Below, one piece after another: positions 31,082 through 55,719 of a DNA stretch of 64,000 nt; the first letter of the stretch is position 1, and each line of letters starts with the position of its first letter. Both the position numbers and the translations under genes were made by a program. The notes beneath the pieces are model-generated. The model was not told the DNA's origin, did not search any database, and saw nothing but the letters and a program-made list of their open reading frames with translations. This stretch comes from a virus. The stretch lies in IMG/VR virus record IMGVR_UViG_3300042396_000723, positions 1 through 64,000 of that record; one strand, 5' to 3'.

Positions 31082-31633
31082 ATGATTATACAACAACTTT
31101 CACTATTTGAAACACAACCCGTAATTCTTGATTCAAACGAAAATTATACCCCGTCTGATTTGATTGATTTAGTCCATGAGTTTTATGGATTTCCTGAATT
31201 AGACCCTTTTAGCTGTGAACTTGCCAACCGAACGGTAAAAGCTCAAAAGATATTTACAATTCAAGATGATGGATTCAAACAGAACTGGAGACGGGCTAAA
31301 ACACTCTGGTTAAACCCTCCCTACAGCGCGGGATTTATTGAGAAGGTTGTTGATAAATTGATTGCAACATTGAACGAGACTGAAGCGGAAGCATTCTTGT
31401 TAACCAATACCGACAACAGTACGGTTTGGTACAAAAAGGCTTTGAATCGGTGCGATCGCTTCTGTCTACCGTCAACTCGGTTAACTTTTTATTCCCCAAG
31501 ACGGGCAGTGGAGGGGAAGAAACAAAACCAAAACCGATTCTCCCAAACTCTATTTTATTTCGGATTGCAACCTCAAAGATTTGAGGAAATTTTTGAGGGT
31601 TGGGGAACTGTTTGTCAGACTTCTAAATGGTAA
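31082..31633 (+). CDS. phage Dam-like DNA N6-adenine methyltransferase
   Basis: LNPPYS motif IV (N/DPPY) in a 183-aa protein, the size of phage Dam-family enzymes. Confidence 0.5.
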   Translation: MIIQQLSLFETQPVILDSNENYTPSDLIDLVHEFYGFPELDPFSCELANRTVKAQKIFTIQDDGFKQNWRRAKTLWLNPPYSAGFIEKVVDKLIATLNETEAEAFLLTNTDNSTVWYKKALNRCDRFCLPSTRLTFYSPRRAVEGKKQNQNRFSQTLFYFGLQPQRFEEIFEGWGTVCQTSKW

Positions 31634-31640
31634 AAAATAA

Positions 31641-31667
31641 CCCCTGTAAATTAATTTACAGGGGTTT
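31641..31667. terminator. bidirectional intrinsic terminator
   Basis: Perfect 24-bp palindrome CCCCTGTAAATTAATTTACAGGGG flanked by A- and T-tracts. Confidence 0.75.
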
Positions 31668-31691
31668 AAAGTTTTAGCTATTAATCACTGG

Positions 31692-31904
31692 TTATATATC
31701 GCCACGACTGACCTCGCGCCGAAGATCCAGGTCTTTATTTAAAACAAATACTCCATCTTGGAGTTCAATCAAATAGCCTGGTTTCAGTGCTTCAAAGATA
31801 GATCCTTGACACCGATCTGCTTTTTTATAATCCCCTGTAGACGCTAACTTGCCTTCCACGAAATTCAGAAAACCATCTTTGTTAAAGATTTTAATATCTC
31901 TCAT
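31692..31904 (-). CDS. hypothetical protein
   Basis: 70-aa ORF. Confidence 0.4.
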   Translation of the reverse strand: MRDIKIFNKDGFLNFVEGKLASTGDYKKADRCQGSIFEALKPGYLIELQDGVFVLNKDLDLRREVSRGDI

Positions 31905-31962
31905 TTGCTTTGTCCTTTATCAATCATTAATTTAGGGTGCTTTTTATTTGTTGAAACTTAAC

Positions 31963-32160
31963 CTATAAAGTAATCGTTTTTCCTGTTAAAAGATTTTCGA
32001 GAGCAACTCGATTTTCCATTAGGTGAATGGACTCTCCATCAAGACACTGAGATCCTATCTCGCCCTTTCTAATTTTCAAACAGTGGCTTGTTTTATTTGT
32101 CATTACCACCACAGGAATAGGGGGATAAGGTGGGGCTACTATGTATGCCGATAATTTCAT
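31963..32160 (-). CDS. hypothetical protein
   Basis: 65-aa ORF. Confidence 0.3.
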   Translation of the reverse strand: MKLSAYIVAPPYPPIPVVVMTNKTSHCLKIRKGEIGSQCLDGESIHLMENRVALENLLTGKTITL

Positions 32161-32213
32161 AATTATTGATTTAGTCCTCTGCGCTAACTCCTATTATAGT
32201 ACAAATCAAACCC

Positions 32214-32681
32214 TCAATATCTCCGCCTTAAATATTCTGCCAATAATAACGCCTCTGCCCTCCCGTGATGTTTTTCGAGTTTAAGATTGTTAGTTTCACC
32301 TGGAAACATCTGCAACGCCATCACCCTTGACGCTTTCTTATCTTTTCCTATTAGGCTGTAGTGCTTTTTCCATGCCTGGGGAGTAACAAACTCCATCGGG
32401 ATTCCTAGCGTTGCAATAATCCCAAGCCAAATCCCAAAACCCATCCCAAAGTTAAAAGTAGAAGATACCCCTTGCTTGGGCATTGCATGAACATTCTCAA
32501 TAATTAGGTGAGTATTGATGGTGATCATTTCCTTCAGTCCAGATGCCATTAATGTCGGGTTGGGGCGTATCTTTCCACTAATCTTAATCACTGGACAGTC
32601 GAGAAATTTAACCTCACCATTAGAAATCCTACACACTGCCCCCGTCGCTCCGGGGTCAATTCCGATAAATGTTTTAGTCAT
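32214..32681 (-). CDS. RuvC-like Holliday junction resolvase
   Basis: N-terminal FIGIDPGATGAV and C-terminal HGRAEALLLAEY match RuvC/YqgF family signatures. Confidence 0.7.
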   Translation of the reverse strand: MTKTFIGIDPGATGAVCRISNGEVKFLDCPVIKISGKIRPNPTLMASGLKEMITINTHLIIENVHAMPKQGVSSTFNFGMGFGIWLGIIATLGIPMEFVTPQAWKKHYSLIGKDKKASRVMALQMFPGETNNLKLEKHHGRAEALLLAEYLRRRY

Positions 32682-32994
32682 TATCCGTTGTTGTTTGTAA
32701 ATAGTTGATAACAGATGGGCTATAGTCAGATATTAAAATTCTTTCAATTGCCCAAGAGAAGTTGTATTTATCAATTTTTTCACCAAGTCTTCTGCTTAGA
32801 ATTTTAAATATTATTCTGATTTTATCGCCAATATAAGCAGATCCATAATTTAGATTTTTGGCAATCTCAGGATAAGTATTGTCGTTTAATATTCCCTCGA
32901 GAATCTTTCTAGTCAAGCTATCAAGATGTTTTCCGGTCTCGGAAAATACCAAACTATCAACCAACCAGATATATTCTAACTGTTCCCTAGTCAC
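32674..32994 (-). CDS. hypothetical protein
   Basis: 106-aa ORF. Confidence 0.4.
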   Translation of the reverse strand: MTREQLEYIWLVDSLVFSETGKHLDSLTRKILEGILNDNTYPEIAKNLNYGSAYIGDKIRIIFKILSRRLGEKIDKYNFSWAIERILISDYSPSVINYLQTTTDND

Positions 32995-33319
32995 CTATAA
33001 AATCTCCCTCCGCATGGTAGATCCCATTATGAATTTTAAAACCTTCAATATTCTCGGTTTCAATATCCGAAAAACTTACCCGTTCACTAACCATCCAGAT
33101 TAGTAATTTTTCTAAAGTGTCAAAAGCTGGAAGGTGTGGCAGTTCAAGCCTTAATCTATCGGGTGTTCCAAAAGCACCTTTAAAGTGAGTGCTGAATTTA
33201 AAGATAGAATAATGGCGATCGCTTACCCCTCTTGATATTTTTTCCACTTCATCGAGTAGGCATCCTAAGTTTTCCATCCTAAGTTTTCCATCCTTTCTTA
33301 GCACTGTTGGCATCCGCAA
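32987..33319 (-). CDS. hypothetical protein
   Basis: 110-aa ORF. Confidence 0.4.
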   Translation of the reverse strand: MRMPTVLRKDGKLRMENLGCLLDEVEKISRGVSDRHYSIFKFSTHFKGAFGTPDRLRLELPHLPAFDTLEKLLIWMVSERVSFSDIETENIEGFKIHNGIYHAEGDFIGD

Positions 33320-33554
33320 AAGCTATATGATCTCGCGTTATTTGCCACTCGTAACGAGGTCTTAGTCCCTCTCCAATCCTAACACAATCCGAGTCTGTAT
33401 CAGTCAGAGGAGTCACACCATTCTGATATTTGAACAGGGTCTTAGTCACCCAATTGACATCGGTTAATAATTGATTCCCGCCGCGTTTTCTGGCAGTGGT
33501 AACAACTAACTCGGCAATCTCTGGATAATTTGATTTAACTTTTGACTTTTTCAT
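33279..33554 (-). CDS. hypothetical protein
   Basis: 91-aa ORF. Confidence 0.4.
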   Translation of the reverse strand: MKKSKVKSNYPEIAELVVTTARKRGGNQLLTDVNWVTKTLFKYQNGVTPLTDTDSDCVRIGEGLRPRYEWQITRDHIAFADANSAKKGWKT

Positions 33555-33884
33555 TTAAAATTCTTGATTGTTGTCTATGGTTTTCTTGAACTCTGAACCA
33601 ACGGGAGCTAAGTTTTCTCGCCAGCTTAACCATCGGGTTTGTTGGTTTAGTTTGGCGGCGTTATAGTCTTCTAGTGTGATGTTCCAATCCTCAACAGGAG
33701 CAAACTCTAAACCAAGATCAAGAATGGTTTTGACAGCCCCTTCACGGGGGTATTTGGCTTTAGGGTTTGTCGTCCGGTGATAGAGTGTCATCAAAATAAA
33801 GTCTTTGTTTTTGGGGATGGGATTGGGTTCTGGGATTAACAGGATTTGACTGTAGACTGATTCGACTACTTCTGGATATTGCAT
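33555..33884 (-). CDS. hypothetical protein
   Basis: 109-aa ORF. Confidence 0.45.
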   Translation of the reverse strand: MQYPEVVESVYSQILLIPEPNPIPKNKDFILMTLYHRTTNPKAKYPREGAVKTILDLGLEFAPVEDWNITLEDYNAAKLNQQTRWLSWRENLAPVGSEFKKTIDNNQEF

Positions 33885-33891
33885 GAGGTTA

Positions 33892-34659
33892 TTAAGCTCT
33901 TGACGGTATCTTGTTAGTGTTGTCAGATGGAACTATTGAGGTAATACTTGAATCCCCATAATTATTCCACTGAACTATATTTGTCGCCTGCTTCCAGAGT
34001 TGTTGCACTCGGACTTTGTGAGGTAAAAATTCTTCGCTACAAAACTTTCCGAAGTAATCTATATCCCCATCATAACAATCAGTAATTAAATCCCTGGGAT
34101 ATTCAAAATCATAAATCCCGTAAATATTGTTAAAGTTTGCATCGGAATGTTTACCAGATCCCTCCCACAAACCAAATTGACCCCGAAACCACCCTCGACT
34201 TATATCTTCTCTCTTTTGGAATTGTTTACGTCTTTGTATCTCGTATTCGTAACCGTCAATCTCGCTACAGTCTTCCTGTTCATCAGGAGCGTAAAGCATC
34301 CCTATTGCTGTTTCCGAGTCAGGATCATAATGTGATGATATCCCGTTATCAAGCAAAGAAATCCCAACTAAAAGAATAAGCCCTTTGCAATTACAGTTTT
34401 CTATATTCTCCTTAATCTTCCGAACAGTTGCATCGTAATCATGGAACGGATAAACGGGTTTAACCTCAACAAATATCAATTCTTGTCTCCCTACTATCAC
34501 AAAGTCAGGTATCCATCCATCAAAATCGCAAGGTTCATATTCCCATTTCCAATTAAGTAAATCAAAGAAAGCCGCCCACTTAGCTTCTAATCTTGACCGG
34601 AATTGAATCCCATTATATCGAGTGGGTTTGTTTTTGATGGTGTAGTCAAATCCTTTCAT
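33892..34659 (-). CDS. PD-(D/E)xK-type nuclease-like protein
   Basis: FRSRLEAKWAAFFD...WIPDFVIV...ELIFVEVKP fits a PD...EVK active-site arrangement. Confidence 0.4.
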   Translation of the reverse strand: MKGFDYTIKNKPTRYNGIQFRSRLEAKWAAFFDLLNWKWEYEPCDFDGWIPDFVIVGRQELIFVEVKPVYPFHDYDATVRKIKENIENCNCKGLILLVGISLLDNGISSHYDPDSETAIGMLYAPDEQEDCSEIDGYEYEIQRRKQFQKREDISRGWFRGQFGLWEGSGKHSDANFNNIYGIYDFEYPRDLITDCYDGDIDYFGKFCSEEFLPHKVRVQQLWKQATNIVQWNNYGDSSITSIVPSDNTNKIPSRA

Positions 34660-34695
34660 GTTTTCCTCTTATTTGCTAATGTTTGCAATTCAAAA

Positions 34696-35316
34696 TTACC
34701 AACTCGGATTACCGCCATTAACGGCATCCGTCATGTATTTAGTTCTACGATGCCAACCCGACTTAAACACGGTTTGAGAAGGTCTACTGGTATAAATTGA
34801 GGTGTAATAACTATCTTGAGACTTGAGATAGTTTAACGCCTGTTCCTGCGGTGTTGACCCTGAGATATCCCACTTTTTACCACTATTAACATAACTATTC
34901 ATAATAGCTAAATTAAGCGGTTTCTGGGCTTTATCTGCACCTGAAGCTATCCAGTAGTCGGTGTGATATATCTTTATTGCTTGGGGTAAAGTTATTGAGG
35001 AAACGTTTAACCCGTGCCGTTTGGCTACACTTTCAATAATACCATACTTGGTTTTCCCACCGCCATCGGCAGGGTGATCCGACCAACCTCCTTCTACCTT
35101 CAAAATGTGACTTATAGCCCATGCAAAACCCTCGTCATTTATACCAGCTTGACTAACAGCTTTCTTAATCTCTTCAGGGGCTTGTGCTTTGGAAATATCA
35201 CCGGAAACATTACCCGATGGATTAGCACCCGTTACTGATTGAATTGCGGGGGATTGTAATAAATTGATAAGTGTAAACCCCGTTACCCCTAACATCATTA
35301 AGTTATTGAAAATCAT
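34696..35316 (-). CDS. GH108-family lysozyme with N-terminal membrane/signal segment
   Basis: ILKVEGGWSDHPADGGGKTKYGI matches the GH108 catalytic motif; hydrophobic N-terminus. Confidence 0.6.
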   Translation of the reverse strand: MIFNNLMMLGVTGFTLINLLQSPAIQSVTGANPSGNVSGDISKAQAPEEIKKAVSQAGINDEGFAWAISHILKVEGGWSDHPADGGGKTKYGIIESVAKRHGLNVSSITLPQAIKIYHTDYWIASGADKAQKPLNLAIMNSYVNSGKKWDISGSTPQEQALNYLKSQDSYYTSIYTSRPSQTVFKSGWHRRTKYMTDAVNGGNPSW

Positions 35317-35909
35317 TTTTTCGGCTCCATTATTGGGATTACTTTTTTAGGGTCAATATATTTCCCGTTGAGTTTTATTCCTAAGTGCAGGTGATTTCCG
35401 GTTGATGTTCCCGTAGTACCAACTAGAGCTATGGGAGTACCTGCTTTGACCGACTGACCCTTTTGAGCTAAAACTTTCGAGGCGTGGCAGTATTTGGACA
35501 GGTAGCCACCTGAGTGATTGATCTCAACTGCATTGCCACAACCGCCCATGTCACCCGCAAAAGACACCTGACCATCGGCAACGGCTAAGATGTTTGCACC
35601 CCCCGGCGCTGCAAAATCAATCCCGTTGTGCATTTTTTGCCCTCCCGTTACAGGATGCTCTCTCATACCAAACCCAGAAGATATTGTGTAAGGGGTTGAA
35701 TGGGGATAGATAAACTTAGGGGCGTTTTTACCTAACGTAATTGTTTCTGATGTTGTTGTTGATTGGGATTGAGGAACTGAGGTAGAGGGTGATCCAAACT
35801 TAAAAATGCTAAAGCCCACAAGCAAAACAGAAACGAAACACCAGAACCAAACATCATCAAGCTGTTCCTCACAATCCCTTATCCTCTCCTCCAATTTCCG
35901 GTTCAACAT
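35313..35909 (-). CDS. M23 family peptidase (LytM-like) with N-terminal TM segment
   Basis: HNGIDFAAP...INHSGGYLSKYCH...GTTGTSTGNHLHLGI motifs. Confidence 0.75.
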   Translation of the reverse strand: MLNRKLEERIRDCEEQLDDVWFWCFVSVLLVGFSIFKFGSPSTSVPQSQSTTTSETITLGKNAPKFIYPHSTPYTISSGFGMREHPVTGGQKMHNGIDFAAPGGANILAVADGQVSFAGDMGGCGNAVEINHSGGYLSKYCHASKVLAQKGQSVKAGTPIALVGTTGTSTGNHLHLGIKLNGKYIDPKKVIPIMEPKK

Positions 35910-35913
35910 TGCC

Positions 35914-36264
35914 TTATTTTCCCCCCATATCTTGCTTGCCTATTTGTTCTGATTTATCGTTTTTGGGAACGTCAAGGTTGTAGCGCGATCGCAAGCCACC
36001 TAATTTAAACTCGCCACTAAATAGGTTTTTAGCTGTCTCTTTCTTTTCGGGTTTAGTGGAATCGGAAGATTTTTTATCATCGGTTTTGGGTTCTTCTTTA
36101 GGTTTTGCCCAGTCCTCCTTGGGTATCTGCCTAGTTATTTCTGGGATGGTTTTTACCGTTTCGGCTACACCCTTTTTAAACCACCAAGGGATTGACTGAT
36201 TCCAACAAAAGTAAATCAGAAATACCCAACCCAGAACAGATCCAAAATAGAATAAAACTCTCAT
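35914..36264 (-). CDS. membrane protein
   Basis: 116 aa; N-terminal TM helix, then lysine-rich tail. Confidence 0.45.
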   Translation of the reverse strand: MRVLFYFGSVLGWVFLIYFCWNQSIPWWFKKGVAETVKTIPEITRQIPKEDWAKPKEEPKTDDKKSSDSTKPEKKETAKNLFSGEFKLGGLRSRYNLDVPKNDKSEQIGKQDMGGK

Positions 36265-36500
36265 TATTTAACATCCTCCAGTGATTCAATTGGGGTAATG
36301 GTTGAATCGGAATCGTCACCTTGACCGGGGGGAAGTTGACGATTATTTGTGGCATTTATAGACCCGCCGAACCAATAGGTTAAAGTCCCTACACTTTTCT
36401 CGAATAATGTCTTGATAGCGGTTTCAACTGTCATCCCTCTGACTCCAAAAAAGACAAGTAAAGTTAGCGCAGAAACGAAAACAATTCTTGAGGGTTTCAT
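36264..36500 (-). CDS. small membrane protein
   Basis: 78 aa with N-terminal TM helix; start overlaps the upstream stop. Confidence 0.45.
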   Translation of the reverse strand: MKPSRIVFVSALTLLVFFGVRGMTVETAIKTLFEKSVGTLTYWFGGSINATNNRQLPPGQGDDSDSTITPIESLEDVK

Positions 36501-36512
36501 AAGTAAAGGCTC

Positions 36513-38739: not shown

Positions 38740-38744
38740 CTATA

Positions 38745-42958: not shown

Positions 42959-42967
42959 AATCTTCTC

Positions 42968-47490: not shown

Positions 47491-47630
47491 TTTGCAGTCA
47501 TAAATTGTTTATTAATTTTCTGTGATGATTCGCAGAAAATCGGGGAAAATTCCCCGTCGGAAGAGCAACCCAAACGGGGAGATGGTCGAAGAAGCTGATC
47601 ATCATTTTCCCTAAAAATTTTGAGGAAAAT

Positions 47631-47909: not shown

Positions 47910-49081
47910 AACCATCTATTCTAGCCGCCTTTGCAGAAGCCGTCCCCTATATCCCCGGACTCAGACAGCAAACAGGGAGCGTAGTAGCCACGATTCTTAT
48001 GATGCAACTTGAGTATCGTTTCGCAAAGTATCCAGACGGGTTTTATAAGTTTTTAGAACCCCCTCAAAACGGACATCAGGACTACAGGCTTGGGGATAGT
48101 TGGGTTGAGGAACTCGCTTTTTCTAAAGAAGAATTTAGGACTGGGTTTGACAAGATTGGAGTCCGTTACAACTCCAAAACCCAGTATGACGAAGCAAAAT
48201 CTAGCGGATCGGAATTTGGTTGTAATTACTACTGTTCTTACGTTGACCGGAGGTCGGGGTTAACTTTCTACTTTCGGAATCACAGCAAGGTAGATGAGCT
48301 AATTTCCGATATCGAACCCAGGCAAAAATCAGTGGGTTTTCGCCCACGGAAAACTAGACCCCAAATGGTAGATCCCAATCTACAGGAAATCGGGAATCCC
48401 AATTTACTGAATATGGTAAATCCCAATTTACCATCATCGGGAATCCCAATTTACCAGAGTGGTGAATCCCAATTTCCTATTCCTTATATAGATATTTCAG
48501 AAAAGACTTCAGAAAAGACTCCAGAAAATACCCCCCTTACCCCCCAAGGGGAATCGGAGGAGGGGGGGATTCAGAACGAAGCCGTTTTGATTTCAAACGA
48601 AGACCAGGGGAAAGAGCTTACCGAGGACTCTGCTACACAGCAAAGTCAAAAAGAGAATCACCGACCTGAACAAAATCTTAATCCGGTGATCAGACATTCC
48701 GCCGCCGTCGAGTCCGATCCTCGATTTCTACCAACGGACGCAACAGCAGACAATATGAAAACTTGGAACGCAATTGTGGCGACCGGAGCCATGAGAGGTG
48801 AGCGATCGCCCGACCCTGAGTTTTTGGAATATTACAGGGGGCTATTAAGCAAATGCACTCATTACAGGGGCAAAGACTGTAATTCAAACCATGCCAAATC
48901 TTCCCTTGCTCAGAAATGGAAATCCGAGCCACTAAAAATCCTTGCCGATGCCGAGTCGTGGTTGAAATCAAAAGCCAAGTTTAGCGGTGGCAAATCAACC
49001 CAGACCCGCAATATCAGCGAACTTTCTAGGGATGAACGCCTCGCCATCCTGAGAGCCAAACGCGAACAAAAAGGAGCCTAA
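47888..49081 (+). CDS. hypothetical protein (replication module)
   Basis: 397-aa ORF; repeated NPNL-like tetrapeptides. Confidence 0.5.
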   Translation: MGSGGCMKPSILAAFAEAVPYIPGLRQQTGSVVATILMMQLEYRFAKYPDGFYKFLEPPQNGHQDYRLGDSWVEELAFSKEEFRTGFDKIGVRYNSKTQYDEAKSSGSEFGCNYYCSYVDRRSGLTFYFRNHSKVDELISDIEPRQKSVGFRPRKTRPQMVDPNLQEIGNPNLLNMVNPNLPSSGIPIYQSGESQFPIPYIDISEKTSEKTPENTPLTPQGESEEGGIQNEAVLISNEDQGKELTEDSATQQSQKENHRPEQNLNPVIRHSAAVESDPRFLPTDATADNMKTWNAIVATGAMRGERSPDPEFLEYYRGLLSKCTHYRGKDCNSNHAKSSLAQKWKSEPLKILADAESWLKSKAKFSGGKSTQTRNISELSRDERLAILRAKREQKGA

Positions 49082-49083
49082 CC

Positions 49084-49671
49084 ATGACCGAGCTTAACGA
49101 TGAAATCTTTGATCAGGGAATTGAAAACCTGAAAGAAAATTTTTCCGACGCGATTTTCACCGAACTCAAATATGAAATTTGGTTCGACAAACTCTCTCAG
49201 GAGTTATCAGCTGAAGAATTTGAGACTGCAATCCGTGAGGCAATTTTCAACCTTAGCAAGTGTCCCACGGGAAAAGAGCTTGTAAGCCTCGTTAAAGAAT
49301 CCGAACGTGAGTTAGTAAGTAACTGTTGGTCAAGATGCCTAGAATCGCTTGCTAAACGCCTCCCGTTGAATAATTTAGACGATGCGAGTCAATATGCAAT
49401 CGTTCAACTCGGAGGGATGTCTCACCTTGGGTCGATTGAAAGTACCCAACTCAACTACCTGAGCAACGATTTCAAGACTCATTGGCAAGCCTACCGAAAA
49501 GCCCCGCGAGAATTTGAGCGTCCCACGCAGGTCATCCCCCGTGAGCAAATCGAGTTCAAGCCCAATGGACTCAAGCCACAGATTTCAGAGGAACAGAAGT
49601 TAAAAAATCAGGAATTTCTAAATAACCTGATCGCCACAAAAATGAATAAAAACTTAAATGGAGCGAAATAA
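49084..49671 (+). CDS. hypothetical protein (replication module, possible helicase loader)
   Basis: 195-aa ORF immediately 5' of dnaB; stop overlaps the dnaB start. Confidence 0.45.
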   Translation: MTELNDEIFDQGIENLKENFSDAIFTELKYEIWFDKLSQELSAEEFETAIREAIFNLSKCPTGKELVSLVKESERELVSNCWSRCLESLAKRLPLNNLDDASQYAIVQLGGMSHLGSIESTQLNYLSNDFKTHWQAYRKAPREFERPTQVIPREQIEFKPNGLKPQISEEQKLKNQEFLNNLIATKMNKNLNGAK

Positions 49672-50987
49672 TGGAAACAATAATCATGCAAAACGTTGAG
49701 GCAGAACAAGCCGTTTTGGGAGCGATTCTCTTAGACCCCGAAGCTATGGGGCGAGTTGCGGAAACGCTAACTGCTAAATCTTTTTCCCTGCGATCGCATC
49801 AAACAATCTACAAAGCAGCTTTAGCATTACATTCCGAGGGAATAACCACGGATTTAATGACCGTCACTACCTGGTTATCCGATCAGAAATTACTTGAAAA
49901 AGCCGGGGGACAATTAGGATTAACCCAATTATTAGACCGCACAGTTTCAGCAGTTAACATTGATCAATACGGGCTGTTAATTGCCGATAAGCAAACTCGA
50001 AGAAACCTAATTGAATCTGCCCATAAAATTATTGAATTGGCAGAAGATACCAGTCAACCTTTAGAGACAATTCTCCAAAAGTCAGAGGAACAAATTGCTA
50101 ATATTTCCCAATCAAAATCACAACAGGATTTAGTTTCGATTGGTGAAACTTTAATTGATACCTTTCAAGAAATTGAAGACCGGAGCGAAAGCAAGATTCC
50201 CCCCGGTGTCCCCTCTGGATTTTATGACCTCGATGCTATGACTGGAGGATTCCAACACACCGACTTAATTATTGTGGCAGGAAGACCTGCAATGGGCAAA
50301 TCGAGTTTGGCTTTAAATTTTGGATATAACATTGCCAAAAAAGGGCTACCCGTCGCGGTCTTCAGTTTAGAAATGTCTAAAGGTCAATTAGTCCAAAGAC
50401 TATTATCGAGCGAAACCAAAATTGAAAGTACCCGCATTCGTTCAGGAAACATTCAGCAAGAGGAATGGGAACCTTTGACAACCGCAATTAGTTCCTTAGC
50501 AGAATTACCGATTTATATTGACGACACCTCGAATATTACCATCACCGAAATGCGTTCTGAAGCTCGAAGATTGCAAGCCGATAACGATGGAAAGTTAGGC
50601 TTAATTCTAATAGATTATCTGCAATTAATGGACGGAGGAAGTGATAATCGGGTGCAAGAATTGTCAAGAATTACACGGGGATTAAAGGGAATGGCAAAAG
50701 ATTTAAACGTTCCTGTAGTTGTCCTGTCTCAGTTGAGTCGTAGCGTCGAACAGCGCACCAATAAACGCCCAATGCTTTCAGACTTGAGAGAATCGGGCTC
50801 AATTGAACAAGACGCGGACTTAGTAATGATGATCTATCGAGATGATTATTATAATCCCAACACTTCGGACGCGGGAATAGCTGAATTAATTTTAGCTAAA
50901 CATCGCAACGGCCCCACCGGAACAGTAAAGCTATTGTTCGATTCTCAATTTACCCAATTTAAAAATTTAGTACGGGGGATGAACTAA
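49671..50987 (+). CDS. dnaB: replicative DNA helicase DnaB
   Basis: N-terminal AEQAVLGAILLDPEA, Walker A AGRPAMGKSSLALN, Walker B LGLILIDYLQLM, RecA-like SQLSRSVEQR and arginine finger region. Confidence 0.9.
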   Translation: METIIMQNVEAEQAVLGAILLDPEAMGRVAETLTAKSFSLRSHQTIYKAALALHSEGITTDLMTVTTWLSDQKLLEKAGGQLGLTQLLDRTVSAVNIDQYGLLIADKQTRRNLIESAHKIIELAEDTSQPLETILQKSEEQIANISQSKSQQDLVSIGETLIDTFQEIEDRSESKIPPGVPSGFYDLDAMTGGFQHTDLIIVAGRPAMGKSSLALNFGYNIAKKGLPVAVFSLEMSKGQLVQRLLSSETKIESTRIRSGNIQQEEWEPLTTAISSLAELPIYIDDTSNITITEMRSEARRLQADNDGKLGLILIDYLQLMDGGSDNRVQELSRITRGLKGMAKDLNVPVVVLSQLSRSVEQRTNKRPMLSDLRESGSIEQDADLVMMIYRDDYYNPNTSDAGIAELILAKHRNGPTGTVKLLFDSQFTQFKNLVRGMN

Positions 50988-51416
50988 ATGGACATACTTG
51001 GTTGGGAAGACTTAGGAAGTATTATCAATTGGTTTTACGAACAGCAGAGACAAGGCAAAACTTCCTTTAAAGTTCAAGAAATGCGCGATAAGTTTAATTT
51101 GAATATTCCAAATTCAAACACCCGAATAAAACGGTTTCTTAAGTTTGGAATCATTAAACCACTAACTTATGGCAGATACGAAATCGAACCACTGTCAGAA
51201 GAAAGAATCCAGGAGATTAAAGACAAAATCATCCCCCCTAATCCCATTTTTAAAACCTATTATTTCAGGGGAAGACAACATACCGTCGAATGGATTTACC
51301 AAAACCAAAACCCCCCGATGACCCTCCAATATTTTGCTCAAAGACTTCAACGGGGTTGGTCACTAAAGAAAGCATTAGAAACACCGACCCGAAAATACAA
51401 AAAAGAGGTTAATTAA
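50988..51416 (+). CDS. hypothetical protein
   Basis: 142-aa ORF. Confidence 0.5.
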   Translation: MDILGWEDLGSIINWFYEQQRQGKTSFKVQEMRDKFNLNIPNSNTRIKRFLKFGIIKPLTYGRYEIEPLSEERIQEIKDKIIPPNPIFKTYYFRGRQHTVEWIYQNQNPPMTLQYFAQRLQRGWSLKKALETPTRKYKKEVN

Positions 51417-51420
51417 CGCC

Positions 51421-51984
51421 ATGACCGCAGCAACCAAGAAGATAATTGAAAGAATCTTAAAAATTGGTGAGTGGGTAGAGATTGACCCACATAAACACCG
51501 CCCATCTTATCTAATAAGAGGTACAGCATGGCGAGTTGAAAGTTTCAATGTATTAAAACAAACCTGTCAAGTAACTAACGAAAAAACCAGATCGGAAACC
51601 CTAGACTTTGAGGAGGTTTCCGACTCATCCCCATTCAAAAAAACAGATATTGTGCAATTAAAAAAGGATAGCCGTTACATCGGACGGGTGATTATGTGCC
51701 GGGGGAATAAAATCAAAATTCAGTGGGCGAAAGGATTGGCAGAATCCTTAGACTCGGACAAGATAAAACTATTTATTCAGATGGTCAAAGGGGAACAAAT
51801 CCCCCTCGGAAATTACGCTTTCCAGAAAGGCGATCATGTCAAAACTACAGACAAGAATTTTGGCAATGTAATCCTCACTGTAAAAGAATGCTTACCCTCT
51901 GGAATGGTGGTGTTGAGTTCATCAAACGATCCTAATTTATTGCTCCCCGGCTGTGGCTTAACAATTGTTGAGGAGGGTTTCTAA
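51421..51984 (+). CDS. hypothetical protein
   Basis: 187-aa ORF. Confidence 0.5.
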   Translation: MTAATKKIIERILKIGEWVEIDPHKHRPSYLIRGTAWRVESFNVLKQTCQVTNEKTRSETLDFEEVSDSSPFKKTDIVQLKKDSRYIGRVIMCRGNKIKIQWAKGLAESLDSDKIKLFIQMVKGEQIPLGNYAFQKGDHVKTTDKNFGNVILTVKECLPSGMVVLSSSNDPNLLLPGCGLTIVEEGF

Positions 51985-53015
51985 TGCCAACATTCGCAAC
52001 ATTATTCATGGGCGGAGGCGGTGCAGATTTGGGGTTAGAGGCCGCAGGGTTTAAGTCTTTATGGGGAATTGAAAGAGATCCTAAAATTGCAGAAGTAGCA
52101 CGATTAAATTTCCCAAATACCAAAGTATTTAATTCTTGCGCAGGAGACATAAACCCCCGCAGTCTTCCCTATGTTGACCTGCTTTGGATGAGTCCCCCGT
52201 GCCAACAGTATTCAAACGCTAGACGGGGTAATTTAGGCGATCACAAAGACAAGGACGCGGGGCTGTACTGTAGCAGTTATATCGCAGCGATTGATCCTCG
52301 ATGGGTAGTTTTAGAAAACGTCCCTGGCTACTCAAAATCACCTGTATTCGAGAAAATCCTACAATCCTTAATTCGCCACGGATATCGCTATCATTGGTTA
52401 ATACTTGACGCGGCGGATCACGGGGTTCCCCAAAACCGGAAACGGTTGATTATGTGGGCAGTTAAAAATGATCAACCTCTCCCCTATTTCCCCGAATCAA
52501 AACCCAAAAAGGGATGGTATCAAGCCATTGCTGACTTAATCCCAGAAATGCAGGACTGTGAGCTTGCAGACTGGCAGATTAAGCGACTAAATGAATTGGG
52601 TTATTTACCAGAAAAAGCCTGGATTGATATTGGGAAACAACTCATTAGACAGGCTACAGTTCGGGAGTCAAACGATCCAAGTTTTACTATTGTGAGTGGT
52701 CATGTTAACTCGCATTCTCCTATCCTGTTAATCCCCCGAGCGGGAGCTTGCATCAAGAATATTCTCCCGACTCCACAGAACAAACCCTGCCCAACAATTC
52801 GAGCTATGAAGGATGTTTCAACCCATTGGGCGGACATCGTGCAGGGAAGCCAAATTAAACGAATTAGTCAGAAAGCGACGGCACGGCTCCAGACTTTCCC
52901 CGACTCCTATCAATTCCCAGAATCCAAAACTTTAAGCCAACAAATAATAGGAAACGCCGTGCCTCCGTTATTGGCTAAAGAATTAGGTCTGGCAATCTTA
53001 AAATCAATTAACTAA
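51984..53015 (+). CDS. DNA (cytosine-5)-methyltransferase
   Basis: Motif I LFMGGGG, motif IV SPPCQQYS (PCQ), motif VI VLENVPG. Confidence 0.85.
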   Translation: MPTFATLFMGGGGADLGLEAAGFKSLWGIERDPKIAEVARLNFPNTKVFNSCAGDINPRSLPYVDLLWMSPPCQQYSNARRGNLGDHKDKDAGLYCSSYIAAIDPRWVVLENVPGYSKSPVFEKILQSLIRHGYRYHWLILDAADHGVPQNRKRLIMWAVKNDQPLPYFPESKPKKGWYQAIADLIPEMQDCELADWQIKRLNELGYLPEKAWIDIGKQLIRQATVRESNDPSFTIVSGHVNSHSPILLIPRAGACIKNILPTPQNKPCPTIRAMKDVSTHWADIVQGSQIKRISQKATARLQTFPDSYQFPESKTLSQQIIGNAVPPLLAKELGLAILKSIN

Positions 53016-53017
53016 CC

Positions 53018-53461
53018 ATGAAAACATCAACTAAAGCCAAAACCAAACCCGCTAAAAAAGGATTTCAACCCGCCCCTAAAATTCATGACAATGACTTACA
53101 TATATTTTCTTGTGAGTGCCTTTGGTATGACTCAGAAACCGACGAGGAACTATTGACCGAATTGTGGACAGTCAAACTCGATAAACGACGGTTTCGGACT
53201 GATGTCAGGCAAGCCATTATTACGGGGTTGATCTATTGCTTTCTTGAAACACCGGAAGCAACGGAACGGCATATTAACAGGGTGTTTTTTTGGAATAATA
53301 AATCCCGTGCCTATGAGCCATTAGGGGCGGTGTCTGACGCGCCGATGGACGGATCTAGTCCGGTTGATTTTGAAGCCGATCCGGTGGTGGCTTATGAGCG
53401 ATTAAAAGCCCTTTGTGTCGAGATCGAAGTTATCAAGGTTGACGATTGCTTTTGCTCTTGA
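53018..53461 (+). CDS. hypothetical protein
   Basis: 147-aa ORF. Confidence 0.5.
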   Translation: MKTSTKAKTKPAKKGFQPAPKIHDNDLHIFSCECLWYDSETDEELLTELWTVKLDKRRFRTDVRQAIITGLIYCFLETPEATERHINRVFFWNNKSRAYEPLGAVSDAPMDGSSPVDFEADPVVAYERLKALCVEIEVIKVDDCFCS

Positions 53462-53469
53462 CCTTTTAA

Positions 53470-53515
53470 AAATACACAAATAAACTTGTTTTTTTTGCGT
53501 TATTTGTGTATAATG
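53470..53515 (+). promoter_or_regulatory. promoter-like element with overlapping inverted repeat (extended -10 TGTGTATAAT)
   Basis: ACACAAATAA...TTATTTGTGT inverted repeat and a TATAAT box about 16 nt after TTGTTT. Confidence 0.4.
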
Positions 53516-53519
53516 AAAA

Positions 53520-53780
53520 CAGTCAAGAATCAAGGTTTACCAATGTAGTTTGTTGGTAAATAGTTAACCAGTCTAAGCTCTTTACTGAGCTACGTTATTG
53601 GGAAGTGTTTAAGTTCATACCTTGGGATGCGTTGCCAGTTCCAAGCTCTATAACTAAGTGATTAAACAGATGTACAGCAATTAAGTCAGCAATACTGCTG
53701 ATACCCTCTTAATAAGCAGCGATTTCCCACAAATCCCCATAATCTGTTATAACTGGTGAGTAGTTATATGAGGTTGTTTT
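53520..53780 (+). ncRNA. candidate structured noncoding RNA or long 5' leader
   Basis: About 260 nt without an ORF downstream of the promoter-like element; hairpins TTTACCAA/TTGGTAAA and CAGCA/TGCTG. Confidence 0.25.
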
Positions 53781-53781
53781 T

Positions 53782-53982
53782 ATGGTAAGACCCCACGAAC
53801 ACAGGCAAGAAATCAAAGCCAGACTCAAACCAGAAGATAGGGAGAAGTTGAAAGCCCTCGTCGTTGGCATGGGTTATCGTTATTGGAGGCAGGAGTCACC
53901 GGAACCCGCATGGACTGAGTTTTTGGAGGCGATCGCAACGGGCGATATAATTCTTTACAAAAAAGTCGGGGGAGGGGGTTGA
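53782..53982 (+). CDS. hypothetical small protein
   Basis: 66-aa ORF. Confidence 0.35.
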   Translation: MVRPHEHRQEIKARLKPEDREKLKALVVGMGYRYWRQESPEPAWTEFLEAIATGDIILYKKVGGGG

Positions 53983-54043
53983 CCTTTTGGGATAAGTGGG
54001 GTACAGTTATAAATGTAGAAGGTTGAAATAAAGGAACAAGACG

Positions 54044-54274
54044 ATGACCACTCAAACCGAGCCAACTAAAATTTACTGCGACCGGAAATTTTCACTTTAC
54101 GACGTAACACCCTGGACAGCCGCAAGGCTGACGAATTTCTTTAACTTGGTTGACGATGGTGAAGACGTGAAACGTGCCGTCAATGGGTTGAAAACCTGGA
54201 AAGGTAGTCAGTCCTACCGCTTGACAATGAGTGACAAAGCTTCGATTGATTACGTTATTGAATGCTACGGTTAA
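54044..54274 (+). CDS. hypothetical protein
   Basis: 76-aa ORF. Confidence 0.45.
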   Translation: MTTQTEPTKIYCDRKFSLYDVTPWTAARLTNFFNLVDDGEDVKRAVNGLKTWKGSQSYRLTMSDKASIDYVIECYG

Positions 54275-54342
54275 AGATTAATTAACCGAGTAAGGTGGCT
54301 GCCCTACTCGGTTCGAAGTCAATCATTTAAGAGGAGTATACC

Positions 54343-54852
54343 ATGTCAAGCAAAAAACAGGTCAAGCAATCTTTAGAACTGACACTAAGTTTAGCCGAAT
54401 CACTAGGGCCATTAACACGGTCAGAAGCTAAAGAGTTTTTTGGATTATTGGGAGAACTCAATAAAGTTTTCAGTAAAGTAGTTGACCCCGATGCTCACGG
54501 CCTAAAACCCGAACCCAGTCCCGAAGTAGTTAAACACCCCATTGATGCCCTACTCAAAAAAGGAAAGGTCGAACTACCAGAGGGACGCTACAAACAACTG
54601 ATTCAGATTCATGACGAGCTTTTAGTCCTCAAGATTAAATTCTTGAGTGCGAAGCAAAATCAGAATGTCACCTGGTTCCCCCTTGAGTGGAACGGGGATA
54701 AGTCAGCCGCGTTGTACTTGTCATCGTCGGAATGGTCTATAGCTCCCATCAAGTACCGAGATGACAACGATTTGACGGGCGAGTGGGAAGGATTTGATCT
54801 TACTGAGTTCATGAGTATGAACTGCCCAGAGTTTGATCAAGACGAATATTGA
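54343..54852 (+). CDS. hypothetical protein
   Basis: 169-aa ORF. Confidence 0.5.
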   Translation: MSSKKQVKQSLELTLSLAESLGPLTRSEAKEFFGLLGELNKVFSKVVDPDAHGLKPEPSPEVVKHPIDALLKKGKVELPEGRYKQLIQIHDELLVLKIKFLSAKQNQNVTWFPLEWNGDKSAALYLSSSEWSIAPIKYRDDNDLTGEWEGFDLTEFMSMNCPEFDQDEY

Positions 54853-54904
54853 TTTCATGGGAGGTCTTACCCTCCCTCCAAGAAGTAAAGCAGGAGAACA
54901 AATT

Positions 54905-55063
54905 ATGCTATATCGCATCACCCGAATCAAAACCGCACCCGACAGAAAAGACCGTCAAGGGTATTATTTAGAAGCCTTGAATGAGTTAGAGGCTTTGACA
55001 AGATTTCATAACCAATTCCCTGAATTTGTAGGGGAAGAATTAGAGTTAGAGGAATGGAATTAA
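54905..55063 (+). CDS. hypothetical small protein
   Basis: In-frame ATG with AGGAG 8 nt upstream; the track's longer form would overlap the previous gene. Confidence 0.4.
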   Translation: MLYRITRIKTAPDRKDRQGYYLEALNELEALTRFHNQFPEFVGEELELEEWN

Positions 55064-55088
55064 AAGACCTCTAATTCAACTTAAAACT

Positions 55089-55118
55089 AACCAGGGGTTT
55101 ATATTCCCTGGTTTTTTG
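55089..55118. terminator. bidirectional intrinsic terminator
   Basis: AACCAGGG/CCCTGGTT stem followed by TTTTT, between converging genes. Confidence 0.7.
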
Positions 55119-55122
55119 CTGT

Positions 55123-55719
55123 TTATCTAATCACAGGGACAGGAATAATCCCCATCAGAATGCCAGATATTTCCTGAAACATTCGCGTAGTTGTTTGCGT
55201 TGCGTCAATTATAATCCAGTTATTTTGCCTAGCCAATTCCAGATATCCGAAGCGAACCCGATCTAAAAAAAGCAAGTCTCGTTCAACCTTGTCCAGAGGT
55301 TTGTCGAGATCGCGGCGCACCGCCACCTCAACAGGACAATCGAACAAAATCACCATATCGGGATCAATTCCCCCCGTCGCCTCGTGATTTAGCTTCCTTA
55401 AATTATCTAAATTAAGCCCGTGCCCATATCCCTGATAGGCAAGTGTTGAATCCGTGTATCGATCACACAATACCAAATCAGAATCTTCTAACAAATATCT
55501 AATCGTGGGATTGTGTTTAATCCTATCCTTCAGGATTAATTTAAGCTGCTGCTCCGGCGTTAAACACCCATTCTTTAATTCAAAACGAACGTCATAATCG
55601 CAGGGTTCTCTTGTGATGTAGAACTTTAACTTTAACGCCGTGAAATGGTCGCAAAGTTTTCTAATTTGGGTTGTTTTCCCACTGCGGTCAATACCTTCAA
55701 AAGCAATCAATTTACTCAT
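55123..55719 (-). CDS. tmk: thymidylate kinase
   Basis: P-loop FEGIDRSGKTTQ, DRY-like LCDRYTDSTLAYQG and lid region; start at ATG overlapping the upstream stop. Confidence 0.8.
   Translation of the reverse strand: MSKLIAFEGIDRSGKTTQIRKLCDHFTALKLKFYITREPCDYDVRFELKNGCLTPEQQLKLILKDRIKHNPTIRYLLEDSDLVLCDRYTDSTLAYQGYGHGLNLDNLRKLNHEATGGIDPDMVILFDCPVEVAVRRDLDKPLDKVERDLLFLDRVRFGYLELARQNNWIIIDATQTTTRMFQEISGILMGIIPVPVIR

What the first reader, a model, noticed from the sequence alone, without database searches (positions are those of the whole stretch)
31082..55719. Stacked DNA modification capacity: Dam-like N6A-MTase, Dcm C5-MTase and thymidylate kinase in addition to deazaguanine
Besides the preQ0/DpdA island, the window encodes an NPPY-motif N6-adenine methyltransferase (31082-31633), a C5-cytosine methyltransferase (51984-53015) and Tmk (55123-55719). 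This points to multi-layer protection of phage DNA against host restriction, with possible interplay between layers.
Basis: partly seen in the sequence, partly recalled or inferred. Interest (0 to 1): 0.5.

Follow-up and report, generated by a model that had tools for sequence, protein, structure and literature searches.

The report
Cyanophage with several DNA-modification enzymes
This relative of Planktothrix phage PaV-LD really encodes an adenine and a cytosine DNA methyltransferase, inherited from its lineage, but the thymidylate kinase is ordinary nucleotide metabolism, and the more interesting modification genes (a ParB-partnered TET/JBP dioxygenase beside the deazaguanine cassette) lie outside the flagged interval.

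Summary
All three ORFs exist at the stated coordinates, are intact and are under purifying selection. They are a PF05869 Dam-family N6-adenine MTase (31082-31633, +), a PF00145 C5-cytosine MTase (51984-53015, +) and a dTMP kinase (55123-55719, -).

They do not form an island. They are dispersed core genes shared at 94/85/92% amino-acid identity with PaV-LD, which has no match to the deazaguanine genes and already annotates all three.

Tmk is translationally coupled to nblA. In relatives the same block carries ThyX, or ribonucleotide reductase lies nearby. It supplies dTTP and is not a modification layer.

The label 'Dcm' (CCWGG) is unproven. The target-recognition domain matches nothing characterised, the enzyme is not a host DmtC (CGATCG) copy, and GGCC remains strongly avoided.

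GATC is the likeliest Dam target. It is the least depleted same-composition palindrome. TGATCA is kept, while GGATCC and AGATCT are almost eliminated.

The clearest anti-restriction signal in the sequence is palindrome avoidance: 22 of 64 hexamer palindromes are absent.

It sits at a hot-spot whose cargo differs between close relatives.

Verdict: ordinary as stated, and partly right. The capacity to modify all four bases is worth an experiment.

The parts
31082..31633 (+). Minimal (183 aa) N6-adenine DNA methyltransferase of the phage Dam family PF05869. It is the only + strand gene among - strand genes.
31639..31666 (.). 12-bp-stem hairpin immediately after the Dam-like stop codon, lying between convergent genes. 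Terminator-like.
   Evidence: Consensus scan only, where the site was called on the - strand.
51984..53015 (+). C5-cytosine DNA methyltransferase. It is the last enzyme of the replication gene string, and its start codon overlaps the upstream stop codon.
   Evidence: PF00145, E 3.3e-54. All catalytic motifs present. TAATG overlap and GAGGAGG Shine-Dalgarno sequence. 85% identical to PaV-LD ORF010R with dN/dS 0.14. The target-recognition domain is 86-95% conserved among close relatives.
53018..53461 (+). 147-aa ORF of unknown function that follows the C5-MTase in every relative examined.
   Evidence: Present directly downstream in PaV-LD and L003-L008, 86-89% identical. No hit in Pfam, NCBIfam, PHROG or the PDB. 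Only 8 relatives at E <= 0.001 among 1.84 billion representatives.
55123..55719 (-). Thymidylate (dTMP) kinase. Nucleotide supply, not DNA modification.
   Evidence: PF02223, E 8e-35. TIGR00041 equivalog 121 against a cut-off of 83. PDB Tmks at E 3e-31. P-loop GIDRSGKTT and the DRY motif present. dN/dS 0.21.
55716..55880 (-). nblA (phycobilisome degradation protein), upstream of and translationally coupled to tmk.
   Evidence: PF04485, E 6.6e-13. ATGA overlap with tmk. The same pair is found in PaV-LD and L003-L007.
13277..13927 (+). ParB-like protein, the conserved partner of the dioxygenase that follows it.
   Evidence: PHROG 620 'ParB-like partition protein', E 4e-31. Homologues at 26-32% identity pass the ParB_N gathering score. 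Found upstream of the dioxygenase in all 15 related loci that cover that position.
13952..14746 (+). TET/JBP-type 5-methylpyrimidine dioxygenase (5mYOX).
14823..17268 (+). preQ0 synthesis genes: queE (14823-15470), queD (15470-15880), folE (15750-16373), queC (16549-17268).
   Evidence: Pfam Radical_SAM, PTPS, GTP_cyclohydroI and QueC.
17225..18361 (+). DpdA-type DNA guanine transglycosylase.
   Evidence: phrog_887, E 6.4e-36. No Pfam or NCBIfam hit.
18354..19028 (+). Second ParB_N protein. Its start overlaps the dpdA stop by 8 nt.
   Evidence: ParB_N, E 1.5e-5. TIGR00180, E 2.6e-11. Coordinates.
19459..20160 (+). GIY-YIG / NUMOD3 homing-endonuclease-like gene at the right edge of the cassette.
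   Evidence: Pfam. It is retained in the deletion variant L017.

Best explanation
The window comes from a PaV-LD-like cyanophage that carries two solitary DNA methyltransferases as vertically inherited core genes.

The 183-aa Dam-family enzyme is a bare catalytic Rossmann core. It is a lone + strand gene among - strand genes with a terminator-like hairpin after its stop, which suggests its own transcription unit. It most likely writes m6A at GATC.

The C5 enzyme is translated as the last enzyme of the replication gene string, together with a conserved 147-aa ORF. It most likely writes m5C after replication at one short motif that is conserved across the lineage but still unknown. That motif is not GGCC, and the enzyme is not the host DmtC type.

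Both enzymes most likely protect progeny DNA against the subset of host restriction enzymes whose sites the phage cannot afford to delete. Most other sites are handled by palindrome avoidance.

Tmk is not part of this. It is co-translated with nblA and supplies dTDP/dTTP for replication.

On top of this inherited base, this strain carries two further modules at a variable hot-spot. One is a ParB-like protein plus a TET/JBP dioxygenase, predicted to oxidise T to 5hmU and possibly the phage's own 5mC. The other is an inserted preQ0 + DpdA cassette, predicted to replace some G by dPreQ0.

Shown: gene identity, intact motifs, purifying selection, synteny, site statistics and protein folds.
Inferred: target motifs, the anti-restriction role, and every chemical product in DNA.
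For: Identity and integrity.

Inheritance: 94/85/92% amino-acid identity to PaV-LD, in the same gene order, with dN/dS 0.14-0.21, similar to neighbouring genes. The same C5-MTase + small-ORF unit and the same nblA-tmk pair occur in metagenomic relatives, with ThyX in the same block or ribonucleotide reductase nearby.

Coupling: overlapping start and stop codons with Shine-Dalgarno sequences.

Restriction pressure (Markov expectations):
- 22 of 64 hexamer palindromes are absent.
- GGCC occurs 16 times against 117 expected.
- GGWCC 0 against 46, CYCGRG 2 against 33, GRCGYC 2 against 25, GGYRCC 1 against 21.

GATC looks protected:
- It occurs 211 times, the most of the eight same-composition palindromes (range 80-211), and matches the level of non-palindromic permutations (mean 197).
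- TGATCA occurs 26 times and CGATCG 23 times.
- GGATCC occurs 0 times and AGATCT 2 times.
- From my knowledge of enzyme sensitivities, BclI is blocked by Dam methylation, whereas BamHI and BglII are not.

Family-level knowledge: the characterised PF05869 members that I recall (T1, HP1 and VT2/933W Dam) methylate GATC.

The C5 target-recognition domain is conserved among relatives.

Extra layers: together with O'Toole et al. 2026 (PMC13229309).
Against: - No methylation data exist, so both target motifs are inferences.
- The Dam-like protein scores below the TIGR01712 equivalog cut-off (48 against 97). Its closest structural match is an RNA cap m6A methyltransferase (PCIF1), so a non-DNA substrate is not formally excluded.
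- By maximal-order Markov expectation GATC is mildly depleted (0.68).
- GATC tolerance could be due entirely to host DmtA methylation, or to the absence of a GATC restriction enzyme in the host.
- The same palindromes are avoided in PaV-LD and inside the island. The modifications have therefore not relaxed avoidance, which fits partial, recent or non-defensive modification.
- No cognate host restriction enzyme is known.
Confidence: 0.6

Rival explanations
1. The C5-MTase exists mainly to make the substrate for the TET/JBP dioxygenase. In this reading 5mC is converted to 5hmC, so the two genes form one pathway rather than two layers.
For: - Phage 5mC dioxygenases depend on a phage C5-MT, and the characterised T-dioxygenases also oxidise 5mC (PMC13229309).
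- In the close relative L015 (dioxygenase 91% identical) a PF00145 C5-MT, a GATase/Asn-synthase and a SAM-MTase lie directly downstream of the ParB-dioxygenase pair.
Against: - The window's C5-MTase is 37 kb from the dioxygenase, in the replication module.
- PaV-LD keeps the C5-MTase, yet no PaV-LD match to the dioxygenase was found. In the other relatives only about 10 kb around the gene was seen.
- The C5-MT in L015 belongs to a different family (30% identity over 165 aa).
- Per the paper, ParB-associated dioxygenases that lack an adjacent C5-MT are predicted to act on T.
Confidence: 0.15
2. The methyltransferases serve phage or host physiology rather than anti-restriction. Possible roles are control of replication, packaging or lysogeny, or mimicry of host HIP1 methylation. 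HIP1 (GCGATCGC, a highly iterated palindrome of cyanobacterial genomes) contains GATC.
For: - HIP1 occurs 22 times against 0.20 expected, which is 344 per Mb and within the host range of 300-2700 per Mb (PMC4390886).
- 22 of the 23 CGATCG sites are HIP1.
- Host HIP1 is methylated by DmtA (GATC) and DmtC (CGATCG).
- Palindrome avoidance has not relaxed despite the methyltransferases.
- From my own knowledge, the Dam of phage 933W is needed for stable lysogeny.
Against: - The C5-MTase is not DmtC-like. It is 26-30% identical to a coherent group of cyanobacterial and proteobacterial enzymes, no closer than to unrelated MTases, and shows no similarity to their target-recognition domains.
- HIP1 sites are not significantly better conserved against PaV-LD than the background (8 of 12 against 0.46).
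- The specific loss of the Dam-insensitive sites GGATCC and AGATCT, with TGATCA retained, points to restriction as the selective force.
Confidence: 0.2
3. One reading: Tmk is a third modification layer, for example a kinase for a modified dNMP that is incorporated during replication.
For: From my own knowledge, some phages with hypermodified pyrimidines encode dedicated dNMP kinases. The gene lies in the same genome as other modification genes.
Against: - It passes the dTMP-kinase equivalog cut-off and resembles ordinary bacterial Tmks over its full length.
- It is coupled to nblA.
- Relatives carry ThyX in the same block, or ribonucleotide reductase nearby.
- No dUMP/dCMP hydroxymethylase or other pre-replicative modifying enzyme appeared in the Pfam scans of the window's ORFs.
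- PaV-LD's 'thymidylate synthase' ORF115L, the homologue of window ORF 30679-30957, is really a KGG-repeat protein.
- Deazaguanine insertion by DpdA is described as post-replicative (PMC10516641), as is TET/JBP oxidation (PMC13229309).
Confidence: 0.03

Closest known systems
Planktothrix phage PaV-LD (NC_016564): ORF117R 'DNA methyltransferase', ORF010R 'DNA methyltransferase', ORF021L 'thymidylate kinase'
   Same: The genes are orthologous (94%, 85% and 92% amino-acid identity) and lie in the same order and orientation, including the nblA-tmk pair and the small ORF after the C5-MTase. Palindrome avoidance and HIP1 enrichment are also the same.
   Different: - No PaV-LD match was found to the TET/JBP dioxygenase, the preQ0 genes or DpdA.
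- At the equivalent locus PaV-LD has a ParB-like/N6_N4 methyltransferase fusion, ORF098R.
- PaV-LD has an integrase and a PAPS-reductase-like gene between the C5-MTase and tmk. The window lacks both.
Phage Dam family PF05869 / TIGR01712 (T1, HP1 and VT2/933W Dam)
   Same: The Pfam match is above the gathering score. The protein has an (N/D)PPY catalytic motif and is small, with no separate target-recognition domain.
   Different: It is a divergent member, scoring 48 bits against the equivalog cut-off of 97. Its specificity is untested. No member of the family has a solved structure.
Orphan phage and bacterial C5-cytosine methyltransferases (M.HaeIII / M.HhaI architecture)
   Same: All ten-motif landmarks are present, and it aligns over its full length with M.HaeIII at E 3.7e-20.
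   Different: - The target-recognition domain (residues 173-288) resembles no solved enzyme.
- GGCC, the M.HaeIII site, is the most avoided tetramer.
- The closest genome-encoded relatives are only 25-33% identical.
ParB-dependent phage T-dioxygenases (5mYOX Clade C1; O'Toole et al., PNAS 2026, PMC13229309)
   Same: A TET/JBP-fold enzyme with the HxD...H and R residues lies immediately downstream of a conserved ParB-like gene, with no adjacent C5-MT in this genome.
   Different: - No long C-terminal extension is evident: the protein ends 14 residues after the conserved Arg.
- No kinase, aa:DNA transferase or glycosyltransferase follows it. Here it is followed by a deazaguanine cassette.
- One close relative does have an adjacent C5-MT.
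Phage 7-deazaguanine systems (DpdA + FolE/QueD/QueE/QueC; Cui et al. 2023, PMC10516641)
   Same: The gene set for preQ0 is complete and is accompanied by a DpdA-family transglycosylase.
   Different: dpdA overlaps a ParB_N gene. This recalls the bacterial bDpdA-DpdB pair rather than the stand-alone phage DpdAs. The DpdA subfamily and its target motif were not determined.

Membership tests
Phage Dam family (PF05869) | Profile match above the curated threshold | tested here: met
   60.7 bits against a gathering score of 28.1. All 26 detected homologues carry PF05869.
Phage Dam family (PF05869) | Equivalog-level match to TIGR01712 'phage N-6-adenine-methyltransferase' | tested here: not met
   48 bits against a cut-off of 97.05. 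It is a divergent member.
Phage Dam family (PF05869) | (D/N)PPY catalytic motif and a class I Rossmann methyltransferase fold | tested here: met
Phage Dam family (PF05869) | m6A at GATC in DNA | not testable with these tools
   Only indirect evidence: GATC is the least depleted same-composition palindrome, TGATCA is kept, and GGATCC and AGATCT are nearly absent.
C5-cytosine DNA methyltransferases (PF00145) | Motifs I, IV (PC), VI (ENV), VIII (QxRxR), IX and X (GNAVPP) | tested here: met
Dcm in the strict sense (CCWGG, with a Vsr partner) | CCWGG specificity | not testable with these tools
   CCWGG occurs 72 times against 90 expected, so it is not informative. The target-recognition domain matches nothing characterised.
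Dcm in the strict sense (CCWGG, with a Vsr partner) | Overlapping downstream vsr gene | tested here: not met
   The downstream 147-aa ORF has no Vsr match or any other Pfam, PHROG or PDB match.
Cyanobacterial DmtC / M.Ssp6803I / M.XorII group (m5CGATCG) | Membership of the coherent orthologous group that spans cyanobacteria and some proteobacteria | tested here: not met
   A group of this kind (47-86% mutual identity, found in HIP1-rich loci) was recovered. The phage enzyme is only 26-30% identical to it and shows no similarity to its target-recognition domain.
Thymidylate kinase (TIGR00041 / PF02223) | Equivalog-level profile match, P-loop and DR(Y/H) motif | tested here: met
   121.2 bits against a cut-off of 83.25. 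GIDRSGKTT and CDRYTDST are present. PDB Tmks match at E 2.6e-31.
Type II restriction-modification system | A cognate endonuclease gene next to the methyltransferase | tested here: inconclusive
   No nuclease domain was detected in any neighbour of either MTase. Restriction enzymes often escape profile detection, and the 147-aa and 187-aa neighbours remain uncharacterised.
ParB-dependent 5mYOX T-dioxygenases | TET/JBP fold with the Fe(II)/2OG-binding residues | tested here: met
ParB-dependent 5mYOX T-dioxygenases | A conserved adjacent ParB homologue | tested here: met
   Found in 15 of the 15 related loci that cover the position. Homologues pass the ParB_N gathering score, and PHROG 620 matches at E 4e-31.
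ParB-dependent 5mYOX T-dioxygenases | An extended C-terminus specific to the subclass | tested here: inconclusive
   The protein ends 14 residues after the conserved Arg250. No reference sequences were available for comparison.
ParB-dependent 5mYOX T-dioxygenases | ParB-dependent oxidation of T to 5hmU on double-stranded DNA | not testable with these tools
   This needs an enzyme assay.

The most novel reading that the evidence does not exclude
This single phage genome may chemically mark all four bases: m6A (Dam-like), m5C and perhaps 5hmC (C5-MTase, with or without the dioxygenase), dPreQ0 in place of G (DpdA), and 5hmU from T (ParB + TET/JBP).

The strain-specific layers are assembled at one recombination hot-spot. 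There, ParB-fold proteins are repeatedly paired with different DNA-modifying enzymes: the dioxygenase, DpdA, and in relatives an N6/N4 methyltransferase. This suggests that ParB-like proteins act as general loaders or activators for post-replicative DNA-modifying enzymes in phages.
Probability: 0.25. Interest if true: 0.7.

Novelty: new member of a known kind. Interest (0 to 1): 0.35.

Why it matters
As stated, the finding adds little. The same two methyltransferases and the same kinase are already annotated in PaV-LD, and phages with several orphan methyltransferases are common.

The context is more useful. It is a natural series of near-identical cyanophages that differ only in the modification cargo at one locus: nothing, a ParB-methyltransferase fusion, a C5-MT with an amidotransferase and a SAM-MTase, a preQ0/DpdA cassette, or a deletion. 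All share the same background of two core methyltransferases and extreme palindrome avoidance. Such a series would allow direct tests of three questions:
- how much each layer adds against Planktothrix restriction systems;
- whether the layers interfere with one another;
- whether ParB-like partners are a general requirement for post-replicative modifiers.

It also corrects several database labels.

Tried and rejected
1. Non-specific adenine methylation of the Hia5/Hin1523 type. Rejected: those enzymes are relatives of Dam/DpnM/T4 Dam, not of PF05869 (PMC3299994).

2. The C5-MTase as a phage copy of the host DmtC (CGATCG), acting with the Dam-like enzyme on HIP1. Rejected: there is no close genome-encoded relative (at most 33% identity), and the enzyme lies outside the coherent cyanobacterial/proteobacterial group, with no similarity to its target-recognition domain.

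3. Reading the C5 specificity from solved structures. Only motifs IX-X of the C-terminal half match, and the target-recognition domain matches nothing. Source names in the homologue lists carry no specificity information.

4. GGCC (M.HaeIII-like) as the target. Unlikely, because GGCC occurs 16 times against 117 expected.

5. HIP1 sites under extra conservation relative to PaV-LD. 8 of 12 are conserved against a background of 0.46, which is not significant.

6. Function of the 147-aa ORF linked to the C5-MTase. No hit in Pfam, NCBIfam, PHROG or a PDB profile search, and only 8 relatives at E <= 0.001 among 1.84 billion representatives.

7. The PHROG label 'queuine tRNA-ribosyltransferase' for the dioxygenase (phrog_6059). 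Rejected on the TET2/NgTET1 fold.

8. PaV-LD's 'thymidylate synthase' ORF115L as a possible partner for Tmk. Its window homologue is a KGG-repeat protein.

9. Further methyltransferases in the window. None were found among 46 remaining ORFs at E <= 0.001. Only Pfam was used, so divergent enzymes could be missed.

10. Distant DpdA relatives, to test whether the DpdA-ParB_N link is general. The single-sequence scan returned only near-identical contigs.

11. Matching our contigs to the enzymes tested by O'Toole et al. No identifiers were shared.

Full report
**What the window is.**
Megablast of 31000-55800 finds only Planktothrix phage PaV-LD, at 81.7% identity over 37% of the query. A tblastn of all window ORFs against PaV-LD shows mosaic but extensive synteny, running from the tape-measure gene, across the arbitrary ends of the PaV-LD record, and into the replication module. 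Part of the window is 100% identical at protein level to the IMG/VR contig IMGVR_UViG_3300042882_001412. This is an uncultured PaV-LD-like freshwater cyanophage.

ORF 51984-53015 (+, 343 aa) matches PF00145 at E 3.3e-54 and has every catalytic motif.

The kinase ORF is on the minus strand. It passes the dTMP-kinase equivalog model (121 against 83).

**The genes are inherited, functional, and not an island.**
The three proteins are 94%, 85% and 92% identical to PaV-LD ORF117R, ORF010R and ORF021L. PaV-LD already annotates these as DNA methyltransferases and thymidylate kinase. Against PaV-LD, dN/dS is 0.15, 0.14 and 0.21, similar to neighbouring genes.

They sit in three separate units:
- The Dam-like gene is the only + strand gene among - strand genes and is followed by a 12-bp-stem hairpin.
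- The C5-MTase closes the replication string (initiator, DnaB, three small ORFs). Its ATG overlaps the upstream TAA and follows a GAGGAGG Shine-Dalgarno sequence.
- tmk is coupled to nblA.

Metagenomic relatives keep the C5-MTase with the small ORF, and keep nblA-tmk. They add ThyX in the same block, or carry a ribonucleotide-reductase small subunit and DnaN nearby. No close copy of the C5-MTase was found in 185,579 species genomes (best 25-33% identity).

**Tmk is not a modification layer.**
It is a canonical dTMP kinase by profile, motifs and similarity to solved Tmks. It lies in a host-takeover and nucleotide-supply context. No pre-replicative pyrimidine-modifying enzyme was found in the window. 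PaV-LD's 92-aa 'thymidylate synthase' is a KGG-repeat protein.

**What the methyltransferases probably recognise.**
The genome is under extreme restriction pressure (Markov expectations):
- 22 of 64 hexamer palindromes are absent from 64 kb.
- GGCC occurs 16 times against 117 expected.
- GGWCC 0 against 46, CYCGRG 2 against 33, GRCGYC 2 against 25, GGYRCC 1 against 21, RCCGGY 3 against 18.
- PaV-LD shows the same pattern, and so does the inserted island: 0 GGCC against 6.4 expected from base composition.

Against this background GATC stands out:
- It occurs 211 times, the most of the eight palindromes with identical composition (range 80-211).
- It equals the level of non-palindromic permutations (mean 197).
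- Among GATC hexamers, TGATCA (26) and CGATCG (23) are kept.
- GGATCC (0) and AGATCT (2) are nearly eliminated.

From my knowledge of enzyme sensitivities, BclI is blocked by Dam methylation while BamHI and BglII are not. That is the pattern expected if GATC carries m6A. Together with the GATC specificity that I recall for the characterised PF05869 enzymes, I take GATC as the likely target, with probability about 0.55. Host DmtA methylation could produce the same statistics.

For the C5 enzyme I can only exclude possibilities:
- GGCC and the other strongly avoided sites are unlikely.
- The recognition domain (residues 173-288) has no relative among solved structures.
- That domain is 86-95% conserved among close relatives, so the specificity is a stable trait of the lineage.
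- The enzyme is not a host DmtC copy.
- 'Dcm' is therefore a family label, not a specificity.

**HIP1.**
HIP1 is GCGATCGC, the highly iterated palindrome of cyanobacterial genomes. It occurs 22 times against 0.20 expected from dinucleotide shuffles. That is a host-like density, since Elhai 2015 gives 300-2700 per Mb for most cyanobacteria. I tested whether the two phage methyltransferases mirror the host DmtA/DmtC pair that methylates HIP1. The Dam part is compatible with this. The C5 part is not. HIP1 sites are not significantly better conserved than the background.

Directly upstream of queE lie a 216-aa ParB-like protein (13277-13927) and a 264-aa TET/JBP dioxygenase (13952-14746).
- The dioxygenase scores just under the Pfam threshold itself (33 against 34.9). 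Its homologues pass, and 119 of the 120 best homologues listed carry PF12851.
- H185, D187, H236 and R250 are invariant.
- The PHROG name for its family, 'queuine tRNA-ribosyltransferase', is therefore wrong.
- The ParB-like gene precedes the dioxygenase in all 15 related IMG/VR loci that cover the position, down to 40-47% dioxygenase identity.
- It is recognised as ParB by PHROG (E 4e-31) and, in its homologues, by Pfam.

This matches the ParB-dependent phage T-dioxygenases described in 2026, which make 5hmU after replication and can also oxidise 5mC (PMC13229309). I could not compute clade membership. The subclass-specific long C-terminus is not evident here.

**A modification hot-spot.**
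Downstream of the ParB-dioxygenase pair, close relatives carry different cargo:
- nothing (L009, L010);
- a full ParB-like/N6_N4 methyltransferase fusion (L012, L013, L016);
- a ParB fragment, a different C5-MT, a GATase/Asn-synthase and a SAM-MTase (L015);
- the queE-queD-folE-queC-dpdA-ParB_N-GIY-YIG cassette (the window, L024, L106-L109);
- a deletion joining dioxygenase residue 214 to the last 85 residues of the ParB_N protein (L017).

PaV-LD itself has, at this locus, only the ParB-like/N6_N4 methyltransferase ORF098R, whose N-terminal region is 85% identical to the window's ParB-like protein. ParB-methyltransferase fusions are known to be frequent in phages (PMC12704722).

**Mechanistic picture.**
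Shown: the enzymes, their integrity, their coupling to neighbouring genes, and the site statistics.

Inferred:
- During replication the C5-MTase writes m5C at one motif and the Dam-like enzyme writes m6A at GATC.
- FolE, QueD, QueE and QueC make preQ0, and DpdA exchanges it for some guanines. The overlapping ParB_N protein perhaps assists, as DpdB assists bacterial DpdA (PMC10516641).
- The ParB-like protein activates the dioxygenase to oxidise T, and possibly the phage's own 5mC.
- Tmk only feeds dTTP synthesis.

Palindrome avoidance is undiminished, even inside the island. This argues that the modifications are partial, or that they complement avoidance rather than replace it.

**Verdict.**
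As stated, this is an already-annotated feature of the PaV-LD lineage combined with a known kind of deazaguanine system, so it is a new member of a known kind with modest interest. The better lead lies outside the flagged interval: the ParB-dioxygenase pair and the variable hot-spot, which give this phage the coding capacity to modify all four bases.

Noticed in passing
window 13277-14746: A conserved gene pair, a ParB-like protein plus a TET/JBP 5-methylpyrimidine dioxygenase, lies immediately upstream of the preQ0 genes. It is a likely ParB-dependent T (or 5mC) dioxygenase and so a fourth DNA-modification capacity.
   Followed up: yes
window 13928-20160; loci L009, L010, L012, L013, L015, L016, L017, L024: The region downstream of the ParB-dioxygenase pair is a hot-spot. 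Near-identical relatives carry there nothing, a ParB-N6/N4 MTase fusion, a C5-MT with GATase/AsnS and a SAM-MTase, the preQ0/DpdA cassette, or a deletion that truncates the dioxygenase (L017).
   Followed up: partly
L002 20791-22074 (PaV-LD ORF098R): PaV-LD's 'ParB-like partition protein' is really a ParB-like domain fused to an N6_N4 DNA methyltransferase (SDPPY). The ParB-like region is 85% identical to window ORF 13277-13927, but in PaV-LD it is interrupted upstream by a stop codon.
   Followed up: partly
window 17225-19028: dpdA overlaps the start of a second ParB_N gene by 8 nt. This resembles the bacterial bDpdA-DpdB pair rather than the stand-alone phage DpdAs. Whether the link is general among phages could not be tested.
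   Followed up: partly
whole window (22 sites, e.g. 16615, 31452, 49790): The cyanobacterial HIP1 octamer GCGATCGC occurs 22 times against 0.2 expected, which is 344 per Mb. 22 of the 23 CGATCG sites are HIP1. PaV-LD has 46 copies.
   Followed up: partly
whole window: Palindrome avoidance is extreme: 22 of 64 hexamer palindromes are absent, GGWCC occurs 0 times against 46 expected, and GGCC 16 against 117. The same pattern holds in PaV-LD and inside the inserted island.
   Followed up: yes
window 53018-53461: A lineage-restricted 147-aa ORF always follows the C5-MTase and is 86-89% identical among relatives. It has no detectable homology to anything annotated and could be a partner or regulator of the methyltransferase.
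   Followed up: partly
window 30679-30957 (-) / PaV-LD ORF115L: The RefSeq annotation 'thymidylate synthase' is wrong. The 92-aa protein matches only the KGG stress-induced repeat (PF10685).
   Followed up: yes
phrog_6059 (matched by window 13952-14746): This PHROG family is labelled 'queuine tRNA-ribosyltransferase', but its member here has a TET2/NgTET1 fold. The label is probably guilt by association with deazaguanine clusters.
   Followed up: yes
window 54343-55123, compared with PaV-LD 10405-12731 and L003-L007: PaV-LD has an integrase, and PaV-LD and its relatives have a PAPS-reductase-like gene, in the block between the C5-MTase and tmk. The window lacks both and has a 169-aa ORF there.
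   Followed up: no
window 49671-50987, compared with PaV-LD ORF007R: DnaB is 438 aa here but 579 aa in PaV-LD, with 93% identity over the shared part. PaV-LD may carry an insertion, for example an intein.
   Followed up: no
window 19459-20160: A GIY-YIG/NUMOD3 homing-endonuclease-like gene sits at the right edge of the deazaguanine cassette and survives in the deletion variant L017. It may mobilise the cassette.
   Followed up: no
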